Shown here one piece after another: positions 55,573 to 60,919 of a stretch of 64,000 nt of DNA (its first letter is position 1; each line of letters opens with the position of its first letter). The translations under genes and the position numbers were made by a program. The DNA lies in NCBI GenBank assembly GCA_044225365.1, contig JBGAIQ010000011.1:84782-148781 (forward strand), read 5' to 3'. Source of the stretch: Planctomycetota bacterium. GTDB taxonomy: Bacteria; Planctomycetota; B15-G4; JADJEK01. A model generated the notes under the pieces. The model did no database searches, was not told the origin of the DNA, and saw only the letters and a list, made by a program, of their open reading frames with translations.

Positions 55573-55953
55573 ATGCCGATAACTCAGGTGCACCTCTTCT
55601 GCGAAGCTGACGGTCGGTCCCCGATCGCCGAGTGGCTCAACGAACTGCAAGGCGCCGACCGTTCGGCCTACGTGAAATGCAGAGCCGCGATCGCGTCGCT
55701 GCGGCAGTTCGGGCATGAGCTGCGTCGCCCTACGGCCGACCTGTTGCGCGATGGTATTCGTGAGCTTCGCGTGCGAAAGGGTCATGTGAACTACCGGCTC
55801 TTGTACTTCTTCAGCGGAAAGGACATCGCCGTCCTCGCTCACGGTCTCACGAAGGAGGACGTCGTGCCTGCCGCCGACATCGATCGTGCCGTCCGTCGCA
55901 AGGCCCTCTTCGAAGCGAATCCGAGCCGCCACACCTTCATCTTTGCGGAGTGA
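55573..55953 (+). CDS. Type II toxin, RelE/HigB (Gp49-like) family
   Basis: GHELRRP..D.LRDGIRELR, YRLLYFF, LAHG.TK; toxin gene precedes an HTH gene. Confidence 0.88.
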   Translation: MPITQVHLFCEADGRSPIAEWLNELQGADRSAYVKCRAAIASLRQFGHELRRPTADLLRDGIRELRVRKGHVNYRLLYFFSGKDIAVLAHGLTKEDVVPAADIDRAVRRKALFEANPSRHTFIFAE

Positions 55954-56297
55954 CACCCATGACCCATCGTAAGACCCGCGGAAAGAAGACCACCGACGCG
56001 GAGGAGATCCTTGACCGCATGGCGGGCGACGACCCCTCGCTTCGCCAGGAAATCGAAGACGCGAAGCTCAACATGCGCGTCGCCGAGATGATTCTCGCGG
56101 CCCGCGAGTCCGAAGGACTCACGCAGGCGCAGCTCGCAAAGCTGGTCGGAACTCAGCAGAGCGTCATTTCGCGCCTCGAGGACGCGGACTACGAGGGGCG
56201 ATCACTCACGATGCTCCAGCGCATCGCCGCCGCGCTTCACAAGCGGCTCGAGGTGCGGCTCGTTCCCGAGGAGCCCTTGGCGAGCGGTTCCCGCTGA
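55950..56297 (+). CDS. XRE-family HTH antitoxin (HigA-like)
   Basis: GLTQAQLAKLVGTQQSVISRLE; GTGA overlap with the toxin (alternative ATG 55959). Confidence 0.88.
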   Translation: MTPMTHRKTRGKKTTDAEEILDRMAGDDPSLRQEIEDAKLNMRVAEMILAARESEGLTQAQLAKLVGTQQSVISRLEDADYEGRSLTMLQRIAAALHKRLEVRLVPEEPLASGSR

Positions 56298-56467
56298 TCG
56301 TTTCGAGCCGCGCCGCCAAAGATCAAGATCGCGAGCTCGCGCGCGACTGGCTCGGGCGATTTGACGTCGTGATTCTCGAGGATTACCTCCCGCTCTTGCC
56401 CGCTTCGCGAATTGGAGCCGAGGCCGAATCGCCGGCGGTCGAATCGCCGCTTAGCGTGGCCCGCCTC

Positions 56468-57559
56468 ATGCGCGACTTCGACTCCAACTTCAACCCACTC
56501 GCCTTCCTGCTTGCGTTGCTCGCGAATTGGACTCAACGCGGCCAGCAGCGGCTCGTCGACTATCTCGTCGAAGAGAACCGCGTCCTCAAGGCCAAGCTCG
56601 GCAAGCGGCGGATCTACTTCTCCGATGCCGAACGCGCGAAGCTCGCGCGAGCCGGCAAGGCCCTCGGTCGCAAGCTCCTCGAGAATTACGCAACGATCGC
56701 GACTCCTGACACGATCCTGCGGTGGCATCGAAGACTGATCGCGCTGAAATGGACGTTCGCGAAGGGACTCGAAAAGAAGATCGGCCGACCGCGCATCGCG
56801 GATGAGGTCGAACAGTTGGTCGTCAAGATGGCGAAGGAGAACGCCGGGTGGGGCTACGACCGAATCCAGGGAGCGCTTGCGAATCTCGGACACGAGATCG
56901 GTGCGACCACGGTCAGCGAGATCCTCGCACGCAACGGCATTCCTCCCGCGCCACGGCGACGATCGACGTGGGCCAGGTTCATCAAGTCGCACCACGCCGT
57001 CCTCGCCGGAGCCGACTTCTTCACGACCGACGTATGGACGAAGCTCGGCCTCACGACGGTGTACACGCTCTTCGCCATCCGGCTCGCTACGCGACGCGTC
57101 GAGATCCTCGGCACGACGACGAATCCCGACTCCGCGTTCATGGCGCAGGTCGCGCGCAATATCGCGATCGAGAGAAGTCCGCTCTTCGACGGCGTCACTC
57201 ACCTGATCATCGACCGCGACTCGAAGTACTCGGCGCGATTCGAAGAGCTGATGCGCGAAGCCGGAATCGAGTCGGTCAGGATTCCTGCGCAGTGCCCCGC
57301 GGCGAACGGTGTGAGCGAGCGGTTCGTGAAATCCGTGAAGACCGAGTGCCTGCGCAAGCTGATCTTCTTCGGCATCGGCTCGCTCGAGCGCGCTCTGCGC
57401 GAATATGTCGAGTTCCACTACCGGAGCGAGCGCAACCACCAGGGGATCGGCAATCGGATCATCGAGCCCGGCGCGGAGGTCGGCACGACCGTCGGTCGAA
57501 TCGAGCGTGTCGATCGGCTCGGCGGACTGCTGCGTCACTACCGTCGCGTCGCGGCCTAA
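56468..57559 (+). CDS. Integrase-core (rve) DDE transposase
   Basis: TPDTILRWHR, WGYDRIQGAL, ADFFT (D), LIIDRDSKY (D), SERFVKSVKTEC (E), RNHQG, RLGGLL..Y. Confidence 0.9.
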   Translation: MRDFDSNFNPLAFLLALLANWTQRGQQRLVDYLVEENRVLKAKLGKRRIYFSDAERAKLARAGKALGRKLLENYATIATPDTILRWHRRLIALKWTFAKGLEKKIGRPRIADEVEQLVVKMAKENAGWGYDRIQGALANLGHEIGATTVSEILARNGIPPAPRRRSTWARFIKSHHAVLAGADFFTTDVWTKLGLTTVYTLFAIRLATRRVEILGTTTNPDSAFMAQVARNIAIERSPLFDGVTHLIIDRDSKYSARFEELMREAGIESVRIPAQCPAANGVSERFVKSVKTECLRKLIFFGIGSLERALREYVEFHYRSERNHQGIGNRIIEPGAEVGTTVGRIERVDRLGGLLRHYRRVAA

Positions 57560-57803
57560 AATCGTCGAGATCGATGGCCTGGCTTTCGGTCGCGCGACTC
57601 GCGAGGCGCGGCCATCGCGTGTCACGAGCAGACGAATCGCCGTTCTGAACGTCGTTTCGCCGCTGAGTCGGCCATTCCCCGCCGTCAAGGCGGCCGGGCA
57701 ACGATCGAATTCCGCCATCGCGATTCTCAATTCCGCCGTCGGCGACGCTCCCGTATCACGGAATTGGCGTCGTCTAGCTTTCCGAACCTCCATGAGAAGT
57801 GGC

Positions 57804-58119
57804 CCCGCGTCAACCCGCCTTGGCGAATTTCTTCGAGACGAAAACGATCGACACTCTCCCGTATACGTCCATTCGCACTCGTCGAGGAAGCGGTTCGCGC
57901 TTCGGTGCATTTGGGGGTCCGCTCGATCCGGCGCTGCCATCCACACAACGCCATCCCGATGGGTGGCAGTACGGAAATCGCAGACGCCTGACCGAACGGT
58001 AGAGTGTCTGTCGTTCTCTGCCTCGTAGCTCTTCGCCGGCGGAGTCGCCGAGCGTCTTCGTGATGTCTTCCTATCGAATCAGGTTGCCGACGAGGGTTTG
58101 AAGCGTCACCGCGACCGCA
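57804..58119 (-). ncRNA. Putative bridge/seek RNA region of the IS110 element
   Basis: Non-coding end containing segments that match both arms of the reconstructed target and of the donor junction, each pair separated by a hairpin. Transcript limits unknown. Confidence 0.65.
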
Positions 58120-59193
58120 TCAAGCACAGGTACGTTCCTGGCAGTGACGTTGGTTGCGCAACGGCTCGTACTCCTCACCGGTCTTCCAAAGACTCAAGAG
58201 CAAGACGGATAACCTCCGCGCGACGGCGACTACCGCACGCTTCTTGGCGCGTGGTCCTCCCCTCGCAGCGATGGCCAGACCGTAGCGGCGCAGATCGCTG
58301 TCCTTGCCGAACGGTTCGAGAATGTACTGGGCGCTCTGCACGAGCAGTCGGCGGACGTACCCGTTACCCGCCTTCGTAATCGACATCTGCGGATTGCTGT
58401 TGCCGCTTTGGTACTGCCTCGGCACCAACCCGAAGTAGCTCCCTACCGACCTGGTGTTCTGGAAACGCGAGGGATCGTTCACCGTCAGAACGAAGCTGTA
58501 CGCCGTCAGAGTTCCGACGCCGTTCACCTGGCTCAGCAACGTGACCACCGGATACGCAGCCGGGGCTCGCGCTTCGATCGCGCGGTCGATCTGCTTGATC
58601 TCCTGCGTCAACGCTGCGATTTGCCGGAGGGCCGGCGCAACCAGCTGCTGGACTTCCTCCGACAGCAACGGGTGGATTCGCTTGGCGAACACCGAAGTCG
58701 AGCAAGTCGGCAACGGCACACCGAGCGAGTTCATAATCCCCCGAACCTCGTTCACCAGCGCCGTACGATTGCGAACGAGAGTGTCGCGAATCCGAAGCGT
58801 TGCCAAGTCGCGTTGGTGTGCTTCGGTTCGGTGTTCGACGCGACGAAGCAGCGGCAGGCAGGTCGCACCCATCAGCGCAAGAGCGCGTGCATCGCTCTTG
58901 TCGTTCTTCTGGCGCTGCTTGAACGCGACCTTCAGGGAGTCGAAAGCGACCACCAGCACCTCGTACCCGAGATCCGTGAGCAGCCGGGAAACCCACGGTG
59001 AAGATCCGCAGACCTCCATCACGACACGACACCGTTCCCGGTTCTCAAAAGCCTTCGTGAACGCAGCCCTCGTTCCCGCGATCGAGAACTCCTCGATCAA
59101 ACGGCCATCAAGAACGACGGCAGCGTGAGAAGTCTTCCTCCCGAGATCGATTCCGATCACGCACGACGACGACTTCGAAGTACGATTGTCCAT
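58120..59193 (-). CDS. IS110-family DEDD transposase/recombinase
   Basis: AAAGGAGG RBS; IGIDLG, VVMEVCG, KNDKSDA (DEDD); VNGVGTLTA, SYFGLVPRQYQSG, ITKAGN, VAVARRL. Confidence 0.94.
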   Translation of the reverse strand: MDNRTSKSSSCVIGIDLGRKTSHAAVVLDGRLIEEFSIAGTRAAFTKAFENRERCRVVMEVCGSSPWVSRLLTDLGYEVLVVAFDSLKVAFKQRQKNDKSDARALALMGATCLPLLRRVEHRTEAHQRDLATLRIRDTLVRNRTALVNEVRGIMNSLGVPLPTCSTSVFAKRIHPLLSEEVQQLVAPALRQIAALTQEIKQIDRAIEARAPAAYPVVTLLSQVNGVGTLTAYSFVLTVNDPSRFQNTRSVGSYFGLVPRQYQSGNSNPQMSITKAGNGYVRRLLVQSAQYILEPFGKDSDLRRYGLAIAARGGPRAKKRAVVAVARRLSVLLLSLWKTGEEYEPLRNQRHCQERTCA

Positions 59194-59279
59194 GGTTGGC
59201 CTCCTTTGAGCGGCGACGCTCGACATCATGCAGACCCTCGCGGTACTGCGCTCGAGGCCAGCCACTTCTCATCCCATCC

Positions 59280-59561
59280 ACACAGCGTCGCTTCTGCGGC
59301 TCGTGACGCTGTTACTCGCCGAGCAACATGACGAGTGGCAGGCATCGGAGAAGGCGTACTTCAGTCAGCGATCCATGACGAAGGTCACGACGTCCGTCCT
59401 GCCGCCACCGAGCCTGATGAAGGAGGTGGCGACGTCGTGAAGTCGGGCCGGATGCAGCCGATCGAGCGACGAGCGCTCTGAAGGGCGCTCGCTCGCCCGG
59501 CTGCCCGACCCTCCAGCATTCTTATGACCAACCGAATTACACCACTTGACGAGACACGAAC
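59280..59561 (+). pseudogene. 3' remnant of an IS256-family transposase with its right end
   Basis: TASLLRLVTLLLAEQHDEWQ..YF, stop at 59440; preceding FPN codons lie at 57779-57787; GAATTACACCACTTGACGAGACAC (from 59534) resembles IS256 right termini. Confidence 0.75.
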
Positions 59562-59593
59562 GGAAAACCCGTATTTGGGCGCAGAGCGGCACA

Positions 59594-59974
59594 CTACTTC
59601 TTCGGAATGGTGTCAATGTGCTTTCCAAAGTCGGTGAGAAACTGGAGCTCATGCGACGAAAGCTGACTGCTACACCCGGACGCACTGGGTTTTGCCGTTT
59701 CGGTGTCTCGCCGAACGTCAAACAGAGCCATTGACACATCTCCGTGCGGGGTCTCCGCGAGCATGAAGGCGAGCCTTCCATCTATATTATACATCTTGAT
59801 AGTAGGCACGTCACCATCAACCGAAAGAACTATACGATCCTTGCCGGCGGAGTCCCGGACCGCCAGCTTCTTGGTTACCACATCCTCTTGATTACTAGGC
59901 CTAGCCCCGCCAAAGGTGGACCCTGCACCAAAAGCGACACAAAGCGCAAGACAAGACTGCGTGTAGTTGTTCAT
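59594..59974 (-). CDS. Hypothetical exported protein, lower GC; candidate immunity protein
   Basis: AGGAG RBS, signal-like N-terminus, AT-richer codons; downstream of the Rhs gene on the same strand. Confidence 0.6.
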   Translation of the reverse strand: MNNYTQSCLALCVAFGAGSTFGGARPSNQEDVVTKKLAVRDSAGKDRIVLSVDGDVPTIKMYNIDGRLAFMLAETPHGDVSMALFDVRRDTETAKPSASGCSSQLSSHELQFLTDFGKHIDTIPKK

Positions 59975-60919
59975 GACAAACTCCTAGATCATGTTCGCCT
60001 AGAGCCATCTAGTGACTTCTGGAATGTCGATGCCGTCGCACCGTCCAGCTGCGGAACAGGGTATCACATCGACATGTGCTCGGAAAGACAAAAATAGCCA
60101 CGTCAACGGATCGATGGGTTGAAAGTAGGTCCTCCTGTTCTCCGTGTTGGTAACGTTTTTACGTAGACCGGCCCGTCTTGCGAATTCGGACACGATCTCG
60201 CTTTTCTCGCCGCGAGAGGGGGTTGCGTACCGGATCGCGCGCGAGGAAGGCGTAAAATCTCAATTGGGCGAGGCTGGCAGGTACGCGCGACTAGTCTACT
60301 CAGCCGCTTGTTGAGAGAGTTAGATCATCTTCGGCTCATCGGCGTCCGGATCGAGCCGGGGCATTGGTTCTCGACAGCTGTGTCCGTGGTCGCGCACGTT
60401 GCCCGAAGCGCCGCCGCAGTTGCACCTTGTACCGTGGCCGGCCAGCTCGAGGATGGCGCTATCTCGCTTCCGGCGCGTACCGGTCCGAGATATAGGCGAG
60501 TCTTCGGTGCGCGAATTGAAGGGAACACGGGATTTCGAGGAATACGTCGAGTTCGCCGACTCGACGCCGCCACACACTCCCAGGGTACCGGCGACCTGGA
60601 TGGGTCGGGAGATGGGCATTATCGCCTTCTGCACGAACCTGCGGATCAACTGGCGCACAATTGGTTGAATCATCGAGCGCGTCCTCGTTCGGCGTCGCGA
60701 TCCGATCAACTACGCCAAACCCGAGGGTTGCAACTCCCTCGCCCTCGGTCGCGCCGTGCGGCGAGCGTGTGAGCGACCGTCCCGAGGGCGAAGCGGCCAG
60801 AGGCGGAACCCTCCCCGGCTTCTAACTCGGAGGTTGCGGTTTCCCGGTACCGCGCAGCTTGCCGACTATGCGCGAAAAACGGCGAAAGCGGAGTTCGAAG
60901 GGCGGAGAATTCCGGCGCG

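What the first reader, a model, noticed from the sequence alone, without database searches (positions are those of the whole stretch)
57804..58119. Readable bridge-RNA guides in the IS110 non-coding end match this element's own target and donor
Seen: the reconstructed empty site is TTTCCGA-AC-ACAGCGTC. On the transposase strand the non-coding end reads TTTCCGTAC (57977-57969; 8/9 match to the left arm plus core), a hairpin, then GGCGTTGTGT (57952-57943; 8/10 match to the reverse complement of the right arm, both mismatches wobble-compatible). Further 3' lie ATGCAC (57910-57905), a GAAGCG/CGCTTC hairpin and ATGGACGT (57872-57865; 7/8 match to ATGGAGGT), resembling the two arms of the predicted circle junction CCCATCC-AC-CTCCAT. 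Known: IS110/IS1111 recombinases use bridge/seek RNAs with target- and donor-binding loops. Inference: an intact RNA-guided recombinase with a predictable specificity.
Basis: partly seen in the sequence, partly recalled or inferred. Interest (0 to 1): 0.8.

Follow-up and report, generated by a model that had tools for sequence, protein, structure and literature searches.

The report
IS1111-type insertion sequence with bridge RNA
This is a mobile DNA element whose own small RNA carries short stretches that match the DNA site it sits in, a kind of RNA-guided DNA insertion system first described in 2024, so it is a new example rather than a new kind.

Summary
The element is an IS1111-type member of the IS110 family. 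It has an intact DEDD/SG transposase at 58120-59193 (-), perfect 12-bp subterminal inverted repeats, and a 332-nt non-coding end 3' of the gene.

A covariance model built from 55 homologous non-coding ends, without the window, finds one RNA at 57853-58004 (-): 58.4 bits, E 8.6e-17. Its helices covary.

Across 38 independent target classes, the two strands of the target loop track each element's own flanks (0 of 20,000 permutations). The donor 3' strand tracks the right end. The window's target-loop guides and ATGGACGT are therefore real guides.

ATGCAC is not. Its GCAC pairs with GUGC in 56 of 56 relatives.

It restores GIFPN-T-ASLLRL of an IS256-family transposase gene, the spacing seen in 11 of 11 homologues.

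Verdict: a new member of a known kind (bridge RNA/seekRNA). Its crossover position is unusual relative to its RNA family. Expression and activity are untested. Interest is modest.

The parts
57779..57785 (+). Left target arm on the + strand (TTTCCGA). On the transposase strand this is the flank next to the element's right end.
   Evidence: It is continuous in frame with the right flank as ...FPN|TAS... of an IS256-family transposase remnant.
57786..57787 (.). Left copy of the duplicated dinucleotide AC (GT on the transposase strand): the crossover core.
   Evidence: The single-AC empty site is supported by 11 of 11 IS256-family homologues and an uninterrupted contig in run X3.
57788..57791 (-). 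4-nt terminal extension of the right end (GGAG on the transposase strand).
   Evidence: It lies between the core and the inverted repeat. Relatives have 3 nt (GGA).
57792..57803 (.). Subterminal inverted repeat, right-end arm.
   Evidence: the repeat finder I4, 12 nt, 100% complementary to 59261-59272.
57853..58004 (-). Bridge/seek RNA scaffold, about 150 nt: basal helix, target-loop arm and a hairpin arm, joined at a three-way junction.
   Evidence: Leave-one-out covariance model R1: 58.4 bits, E 8.6e-17, model positions 1-159 of 159. It is the only hit in the window and in the genome. Fold z-score of the whole non-coding end is -4.06.
57996..58004 (-). Basal helix, 5' strand (CUCUACCGU). It pairs with 57854-57862 (ACGGGAGAG).
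   Evidence: for positions. Helix 1 of the family structure has compensatory changes in 4 of 4 pairs.
57980..57988 (-). Outer stem of the target loop, 5' strand (GGCGUCUGC). It pairs with 57930-57937 (GCAGCGCC).
   Evidence: Family helix 2 is 96.8% paired, with 5 of 9 pairs showing compensatory changes.
57969..57977 (-). Target-loop 5' guide UUUCCGU + AC. It is complementary to the transposase-strand core plus right-hand flank, 8 of 9.
   Evidence: Family covariation of this strand with the flank next to the right end: 6.6 of 8 for own flanks against 3.8 for others' flanks.
57950..57967 (-). Inner hairpin of the target loop (GCCACCC AUC GGGAUGGC).
   Evidence: Family helix 3 has compensatory changes in 3 of 4 pairs.
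57938..57952 (-). Target-loop 3' strand GGCGUUGU + GU + GGAUG. It has the same sense as left-hand flank + core + first 5 nt of the left end (13 of 15; both mismatches are G-U type).
   Evidence: Family covariation: 4.6 of 7 own against 1.9 cross.
57912..57917 (-). Candidate donor 5' segment CCCCCA in the junction strand, complementary to TGGG(G) of the left end. Tentative.
   Evidence: The family motif ACCCCA changes to CCUCA, CUUCA, CCCUA or AUACCA where the left end reads ATGAG, ATGAA, TAGGG or TTGGT. The match is not consistent.
57875..57908 (-). Hairpin arm P3: GCAC (57908-57905) pairs with GUGC (57878-57875), with inner GAAGCG/CGCUUC.
   Evidence: Helix 4 is 99.6% paired and near invariant. 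Helix 5 has compensatory changes in 4 of 4 pairs.
57865..57872 (-). Donor 3' strand AUGGAC + GU. It has the same sense as right-end tip + core, 7 of 8.
   Evidence: The homologous strand equals the right end plus core exactly in 124 of 129 relatives, including 14 of 17 with variant ends.
58120..59193 (-). Transposase/recombinase gene, 357 aa from ATG 59193 (a GTG at 59265 is also open).
   Evidence: Pfam DEDD_Tnp_IS110 4.3e-14 and Transposase_20 5.5e-19. D16, E60, D98, D101, S263 and G264 are invariant in a 40-sequence alignment. GLVPRQYQSG is present.
59261..59272 (.). Subterminal inverted repeat, left-end arm.
59273..59279 (-). 7-nt terminal extension of the left end (GGATGGG on the transposase strand).
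   Evidence: It aligns with AG+ATGGG of relatives.
59280..59281 (.). Right copy of the duplicated AC.
   Evidence: A contig of run X3 carrying a related element end matches up to 59281 and then diverges.
59282..59440 (+). Right target arm (ACAGCGTC...) and the C-terminal remnant of an IS256-family (Mutator) transposase gene.
   Evidence: tblastn against an intact 407-aa relative: 74% over 35 aa, E 7.5e-13. That relative is Pfam Transposase_mut, 6.4e-129. Eleven homologues were found.

Best explanation
Window 57786-59281 is an IS1111-type insertion sequence of the IS110 family. Its DEDD/serine recombinase (minus strand) is followed by a roughly 150-nt structured RNA (58004-57853) that acts as a bridge RNA (seekRNA).

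One arm of the RNA is an internal loop. Its 5' strand pairs with the transposase-strand core plus right-hand target half. Its 3' strand pairs with the opposite strand of left-hand target half plus core, and runs on into the first bases of the element's left end (a 'handshake').

The strands of the three-way junction read the donor. AUGGAC-GU matches the right-end tip plus core. A short C-rich segment probably pairs with the left end.

Recombination between the circle junction (right end-GT-left end) and the target (GACGCTGT-GT-TCGGAAA on the transposase strand) placed the element inside the GIFPN|TAS codons of an IS256-family transposase gene.

Shown here: the RNA family, its structure, guide-flank and guide-end covariation, and the empty site. 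Inferred: that the RNA is made, binds the recombinase and directs the reaction, by analogy with ISEc11, ISPa11, ISKpn4 and IS621.
For: Recombinase: both Pfam domains, with the invariant DEDD and SG residues present.

Anatomy: perfect 12-bp subterminal repeats. The long non-coding end (332 nt) is 3' of the gene, against 86 nt at the 5' side.

RNA: a leave-one-out covariance model scores 58.4 bits, E 8.6e-17, full length, and is the sole hit in the window and the genome. On 56 sequences, 90.7% of cells are paired against 30-44% when partners are slid. 17 of 25 pairs have compensatory changes, and 0 of 500 shuffles reach the observed values.

Target guides: in 38 non-redundant guide/target classes (from 109 loci with both flanks), the 5' strand matches its own flank 6.6 of 8 against 3.8 for other flanks. 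The 3' strand matches 4.6 of 7 against 1.9. 0 of 20,000 permutations reach this, and the own flank is the best or tied best in 36 of 38 classes.

Donor 3' strand: it equals right end plus core in 124 of 129 loci and follows 14 of 17 variant ends.

Empty site: 11 of 11 IS256-family homologues read FPN-x-ASLLRL. There is also an uninterrupted contig in run X3 and an intact relative in G004.

Literature: in IS1111 seekRNAs the top-strand-complementary segment lies 5' of the bottom-strand one, the reverse of the IS110 type (PMC11187229, abstract and section 9). IS1111 bridge RNAs lie in the right end, often with donor nucleotides in a multiloop (PMC11208160, passages).
Against: There is no expression evidence of any kind. 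No RNA run holds the stretch, and no sigma-70-like promoter was found (0 sites).

The donor 3' strand differs from the element's own right end at one base (C for G). Only 5 of 129 relatives show any such mismatch.

The duplicated dinucleotide sits at positions 6-7 of the 12-nt 3' loop strand. In 141 of 147 relatives the core (AG) sits at positions 8-9. The donor spacer between the inverted repeats is 13 bp instead of 10, so this copy does not fit its own family's geometry.

The element is single-copy. Yet one site with 2 mismatches and ten with 3 mismatches to the guide-ideal 17-mer exist in the genome.

The 5' donor segment is short and its covariation is inconsistent.
Confidence: 0.88

Rival explanations
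1. Same system, but the crossover core is CC on the + strand (GG on the transposase strand), as the RNA family's register and the IS1111 '7 bp left / 3 bp right' extension rule predict. The true empty site would then be 3 nt longer than the reader's.
For: In relatives the left end is AG+ATGGG and the right end is CATGGA+AG. The window's GG aligns with that AG at both ends and in the 3' loop strand. Uninterrupted targets of relatives fit a single core in 8 of 109 loci (two of these hits are spurious), against 0 of 109 for no core or a double core. IS1111 extensions are 7 and 3 bp (PMC11187229, Introduction passage). Other non-AG cores (GG, TG) keep that register (L137, L077).
Against: It would put an extra codon (FPN-H-TAS) into the IS256-family gene. 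0 of 11 homologues have it, and two read exactly FPNTASLLRL. The X3 uninterrupted contig and G004 also have the shorter spacing. A related element end in X3 stays identical up to 59281. With GT as core, all three guide strands carry a matching core (AC, GU, GU). With GG, the donor strand reads CG.
Confidence: 0.1
2. The RNA-guided system is real for the family, but this copy is an immobile relic. It would be stranded in a decayed IS256-family gene with a donor-guide mismatch and a 3-bp longer donor spacer that the recombinase-RNA complex cannot use.
For: It is single-copy in a 94%-complete genome. No other IS256-family gene is in the genome. There is a donor strand mismatch and an odd register. 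Candidate sites are unoccupied. A 74-bp solo left-end remnant of a related element on another contig shows decay of relatives.
Against: The 357-aa frame is open with all invariant catalytic residues. The RNA matches the model end to end with every helix intact. The inverted repeats are perfect. A near-identical element end at a different site in run X3 (98% over 327 nt) suggests recent mobility of the lineage.
Confidence: 0.3
3. The matches are chance or a by-product of end sequences, for example protein-binding sites or copied flank DNA, and no guide RNA is involved.
For: Short matches of this quality occur about 40 times per genome. One of the four (ATGCAC) is indeed fortuitous.
Against: The guide positions are defined by conserved helices, not by the flanks. 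They follow the flanks in 38 independent target classes with 0 of 20,000 permutations as good. Helices covary. The donor strand follows variant ends.
Confidence: 0.02

Closest known systems
IS1111-group elements with seekRNA (ISEc11, ISPa11, ISKpn4, ISPst6; Siddiquee et al. 2024, PMC11187229)
   Same: DEDD transposase with the GL-P----SG motif. Subterminal inverted repeats of 11-13 bp. Long non-coding region downstream of the gene. The RNA carries a segment complementary to the top strand 5' of a segment complementary to the bottom strand, and the two overlap at the crossover. Each lineage has a different specific target.
   Different: Sequence identity to those named elements was not measured here (no ISfinder sequences were at hand). 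Terminal extensions here are 7 nt and 4 nt plus a 2-nt duplication, not 7 and 3. The target is an IS256-family transposase gene. RNA production is not shown here.
IS621 and ISCro4 bridge recombinases with bridge RNA (Durrant et al. 2024, PMC11208160; PDB 8wt6, 9t56)
   Same: Logic of target guides and donor guides that each include the core, plus a handshake-like extension of a target guide into donor sequence. Same two protein domains.
   Different: Only weak protein similarity: E 3.3e-7 and 1e-7, C-terminal domain only. Here the RNA is 3' of the gene, the guide order is reversed, and the donor-reading nucleotides lie in a three-way junction rather than a second internal loop.
The uncultured-bacterial subfamily recovered here (147 loci with a recognisable RNA; Acidobacteriota, Gemmatimonadota, Eremiobacterota and other MAGs by record titles)
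   Same: Same RNA scaffold (58 bits to a model built without the window). Same end motifs: ATGGGATGAGAAG, and CTTCTCATGGA. Same guide layout.
   Different: The transposase is only 44-54% identical. Relatives use core AG at fixed loop positions and a 10-bp donor spacer. The window uses GT, displaced by 2 nt in the target 3' strand and 1 nt in the donor strand, with a 13-bp spacer.

Membership tests
IS110 family, IS1111 group | DEDD (RuvC-like) N-terminal domain plus PF02371 C-terminal domain with GL-P----S(T)G | tested here: met
   Pfam PF01548 4.3e-14 and PF02371 5.5e-19. D16, E60, D98, D101, S263 and G264 are invariant in 40 sequences. GLVPRQYQSG is in the ORF. The motif is as written in PMC11187229 section 6.
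IS110 family, IS1111 group | Subterminal inverted repeats, usually 11-13 bp | tested here: met
   12 of 12 complementary, 57792-57803 with 59261-59272.
IS110 family, IS1111 group | Longer non-coding region downstream of the transposase gene | tested here: met
   332 nt (57788-58119) downstream against 86 nt (59194-59279) upstream.
IS110 family, IS1111 group | Asymmetric terminal extensions of 7 bp (left) and 3 bp (right), occasionally 6 and 3 | tested here: not met
   With the empty site fixed by the IS256-family homologues, the extensions are 7 nt (GGATGGG) and 4 nt (GGAG) plus a duplicated GT. Relatives do fit 7 (AG+ATGGG) and 3 (GGA).
Bridge RNA / seekRNA | Conserved structured RNA in the non-coding end | tested here: met
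   Covariance model hit of 58.4 bits, E 8.6e-17. 17 of 25 pairs have compensatory changes, and 90.7% of cells are paired.
Bridge RNA / seekRNA | Two loop segments, one complementary to each strand of the target, overlapping at the core and covarying with the flanks | tested here: met
   38 classes, 0 of 20,000 permutations. The window scores 8 of 9 and 8 of 10. The order of the segments is as published for IS1111.
Bridge RNA / seekRNA | Segments that read both halves of the donor (circle junction) | tested here: inconclusive
The 3' donor strand is met: 124 of 129 exact, and 7 of 8 in the window. The 5' donor segment is only 4-5 nt, with partial covariation.
Bridge RNA / seekRNA | The RNA is transcribed, binds the recombinase and is required for transposition | not testable with these tools
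   No RNA run holds the stretch. This needs small-RNA sequencing, pulldown and a transposition assay.
Rfam families | Match to a curated RNA family | tested here: not met
   cmscan of 56000-60500 at E<=10 gave three matches, all far below gathering scores and none inside 57853-58004.

The most novel reading that the evidence does not exclude
This lineage keeps the RNA scaffold of its family but uses a displaced crossover. The core lies two bases further 5' in the target-loop 3' strand and one base further 3' in the donor strand, with a 13-bp instead of a 10-bp spacer between the inverted repeats. It uses this to home into the conserved GIFPN-coding stretch of IS256-family transposase genes. 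If so, the core position would not be fixed by the scaffold, and the element would be a parasite of another transposon's gene.
Probability: 0.3. Interest if true: 0.5.

Novelty: new member of a known kind. Interest (0 to 1): 0.3.

Why it matters
Bridge/seek RNA recombinases are being developed as programmable tools for inserting DNA. Every well-read natural example adds to the rules for designing guides.

This case adds three things. First, a large uncultured subfamily (147 loci, 38 target classes) gives clean natural covariation for both target strands, the donor 3' strand and a one-base handshake. Second, it is one member whose crossover seems displaced relative to a conserved scaffold, which bears on how rigidly the RNA positions the cut. 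Third, it is an example of an RNA-guided element sitting in the conserved core of another transposon's transposase gene.

None of this changes the known mechanism. For a specialist the basic finding is expected: Durrant et al. predicted bridge RNAs in 93% of IS1111 elements.

Tried and rejected
Rfam gave no family for the region.

A single-protein scan of genome contigs found nothing. It was repeated, as allowed, with a 40-sequence alignment.

Searching 61 relatives and then 401 genomes of the phylum found no transposase closer than 54% identity. The register question could therefore not be tested on close kin.

Neither flank recurs in the own genome, so there is no empty site there.

I first favoured a CC/GG core from the family register and the 7/3 extension rule. 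I rejected it after the IS256-family homologues.

I considered that the C77 remnant also lies in an IS256-type gene. tblastn gave nothing significant, so this was dropped.

I tested whether other family members sit in IS256-type genes. Only the window's own locus does: its two stored copies, L001 and L003, were the only hits among the stored loci.

No sigma-70-like promoter was found.

No RNA holder was listed for the element. The laid runs were DNA contigs only. Two short joints in X1 (side 27) were disregarded as likely foreign, as the tool advises.

The own-genome scan used the family register and is superseded.

A paper search for IS1111 + IS256 + 'target site' listed 5 papers. None is, by title or abstract start, about IS110-family insertion into IS256 transposase genes, and only the listing was seen.

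Supplementary files were not opened. These include Durrant Supplementary Table 5 and the images of Extended Data Fig. 10, and Siddiquee Supplementary Figs 2, 6 and 7. They may already contain this subfamily or its consensus RNA.

Rows dropped. L001, L175 and L177 (copies of the window's own locus) were left out of the family counts; L003 stands for the window. 25 of 172 loci had no recognisable target loop by my anchors. For the non-redundant test, 71 of 109 loci were dropped as similar in guides or flanks.

Full report
OBSERVATION. The two junctions read TTTCCGA-AC-CTCCATGAGAAGTGGC... and ...GCCACTTCTCATCCCATCC-AC-ACAGCGTC on the + strand. A perfect 12-bp inverted repeat (57792-57803 / 59261-59272) lies 4 and 7 nt inside the duplicated AC.

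The quoted 9-mer (<=1 mismatch) followed within 60 nt by the 10-mer (<=2 mismatches) occurs 40 times in the whole 6.5-Mb genome on both strands. That is about one 340-nt strand in a thousand. This is suggestive but not conclusive on its own, so I turned to relatives.

ELEMENT. The ORF 58120-59193 (-) has both IS110-family Pfam domains. It carries the residues that are invariant in a 40-sequence alignment: D16, E60, D98, D101, S263 and G264. It also has the GL-P----SG motif that Siddiquee et al. give for IS1111 transposases.

The long non-coding end (332 nt) lies 3' of the gene. That is the IS1111 arrangement (PMC11187229 abstract and section 6; PMC11208160 passages).

The element is single-copy in its genome. 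A 74-bp remnant of a related left end sits on another contig.

RNA FAMILY. The nearest proteins are 69% and 63% identical but could not be fetched. Fetchable relatives are 44-54% identical.

Of 172 loci examined, 145 have the left-end motif GATGGGATGAGAAG (<=3 mismatches). 149 have the right-end motif CTTCTCATGGAAG, and 157 have AGTGCGNATGGAAG inside the non-coding end.

An alignment of 56 non-redundant non-coding ends (A2) supports four structural elements:
- a basal helix;
- a stem, internal loop and hairpin arm;
- a second hairpin arm (GCAC...GUGC);
- single-stranded junction segments.

On this structure 90.7% of cells are paired, against 30-44% with slid partners. 17 of 25 pairs carry compensatory changes, and 0 of 500 shuffles do as well.

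A covariance model built from 55 of these, without the window, finds exactly one match in the window and in the whole genome. It lies at 57853-58004 (-), full length, 58.4 bits, E 8.6e-17. The whole non-coding end folds with z = -4.06.

TARGET GUIDES. The loop strands were located from the conserved stems (CUGC...GCAG), not from the flanks. In 147 loci the 5' strand matches the reverse complement of the flank next to the right end, and the 3' strand matches the flank next to the left end (own against cross: 6.3 vs 4.1 of 8, and 4.4 vs 2.3 of 7).

Reduced to 38 classes that differ in both guides and flanks, the figures are 6.6 vs 3.8 and 4.6 vs 1.9. None of 20,000 permutations comes close. The own flank is the best or tied best of 38 for 36 classes.

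The order, with the top-strand-complementary segment first, is the one published for IS1111 seekRNAs and the reverse of the IS110 type.

The window fits this pattern. UUUCCGU-AC matches TTTCCGA-AC.

DONOR SIDE. The strand after the second hairpin (family consensus AUGGAAG) equals right-end tip plus core in 124 of 129 loci. It follows variant ends: ATAGAAG in 11 of 11 loci, and GGCAG, GGATG and GGGAG once each. The base after the core also tends to equal the first target base (0.78 own vs 0.39 cross).

The window's AUGGACGU is this strand, with one mismatch to its own end (ATGGAGGT).

GCAC is the 5' strand of a helix that is kept in essentially all 56 sequences. AUGCAC is also conserved in relatives whose donors do not match it.

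A C-rich junction segment (ACCCCA; CCCCCA at 57917-57912 in the window) is complementary to TGGG of the left end. It changes with it in several variants, but not consistently. I call it tentative.

WHERE THE CROSSOVER LIES. In relatives the duplicated dinucleotide is AG. It sits at positions 8-9 of the 12-nt 3' loop strand in 141 of 147 RNAs. Uninterrupted target copies fit LT-AG-RT: 8 of 109 loci had such a copy within the fetched DNA, two of them spurious, against 0 of 109 for no core or a double core. Their ends give the 7- and 3-bp extensions described for IS1111.

By that register the window's core would be GG (CC on the + strand), and I first favoured this. The flanks decide otherwise.

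The right flank is the C-terminal remnant of an IS256-family (Mutator) transposase gene. All 11 homologues found read GIFPN-x-ASLLRL, and two read FPNTASLLRL. An uninterrupted, 99% identical copy in run X3 has the same spacing.

Joining the window's flanks with one AC restores SFPN-TASLLRL in frame. The GG register would add a codon that no homologue has.

This copy therefore has a 7-nt and a 4-nt extension and a 13-bp donor spacer, and its core is displaced relative to its own RNA family. I cannot tell whether this is a working variant or an aberrant, stranded insertion.

STATE AND SPECIFICITY. The gene is open, the RNA is complete and the repeats are perfect. Against activity stand the donor-strand mismatch, the odd geometry and the single copy.

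The guide-ideal 17-mer differs from the reconstructed site at 3 of 17 positions, two of them G-U type. Elsewhere in the genome there is one site with 2 mismatches and ten with 3. Shuffled 17-mers give 0.35 and 5.2 on average. Specificity is therefore readable but not sharply predictive from identity alone.

The genome holds no other IS256-family gene.

Run X3, a different sample, holds a closely related element end joined to different DNA. This hints that the lineage has moved recently.

COMPARISON AND NOVELTY. The element works like, and by the tested features belongs to, the IS1111-group seekRNA/bridge RNA elements. The protein is only distantly similar to the solved IS621 and ISCro4 recombinases (E about 1e-7).

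Durrant et al. predicted bridge RNAs in 93% of IS1111 elements and noted donor nucleotides in multiloops, which is what I see here. So this is a new member of a known kind. The displaced core and the IS256-gene target are the only unusual points.

LIMITS. There are no RNA data and no circle junction. The names IS256 and Mutator come from Pfam and source labels. What I say of IS621's guide layout beyond the cited passages is recalled.

Noticed in passing
L002 about 1500-1575 (G000 contig C77:15395-15468): A 74-bp stretch, 88% identical to the left end and 5' leader of the element (window 59215-59288) with no transposase behind it. It is a solo remnant of a related element. Its flank gave no significant IS256-type match.
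   Followed up: partly
window 56369-57559 (+): A 396-aa integrase-core protein (Pfam rve_3, HTH_32, HTH_21) lies directly left of the IS256-type remnant. A 54-bp match to its 3' end lies at the end of contig C16. The locus is a nest of at least three different insertion sequences.
   Followed up: partly
window 57740-57787 (+): The left flank reads RRRSRITELASSSFPN in the frame of the IS256-type gene, where homologues read RRRTRV(V/I)GIFPN. Against the X3 copy it carries a 13-nt insertion 10 nt from the junction. Further left no similarity was detected, so the target gene is a decayed fragment.
   Followed up: partly
window 55573-56297 (+): An overlapping gene pair, Gp49-like (PF05973, 4.5e-14) followed by an HTH_3 protein. 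This is the usual layout of a HigB/RelE-type toxin-antitoxin pair.
   Followed up: partly
window 57813-57808 (-), and right ends of L004, L006, L095: A TTGAC(G/A) hexamer lies 17-18 nt inside the right-end tip in all 4 right ends I read by eye. Together with GAAGAT spanning the circle junction of relatives, it could form a junction promoter like the one described for ISEc11. In the window the corresponding -10 position reads poorly because of the 3 extra bases.
   Followed up: no
run X3 laid on window 58927-59460: Another sample holds three relevant contigs: an uninterrupted IS256-type gene 99% identical to the right flank, a left end 98% identical to the window's, and a contig whose match ends at 59281 and continues into a palindromic sequence. 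In other words, a close relative sits at a different site.
   Followed up: partly
L137 and L077 (family members): Rare non-AG cores. L077 has TG at the right junction, the 3' loop strand and the donor strand; its left junction was not recovered. L137 has GG in both RNA strands and at the left junction, but two extra bases at its right end. L137 is a second irregular copy.
   Followed up: partly
own genome C70:107304 (-) and ten other sites: Sites with 2-3 mismatches to the guide-ideal 17-mer are not occupied by the element.
   Followed up: no
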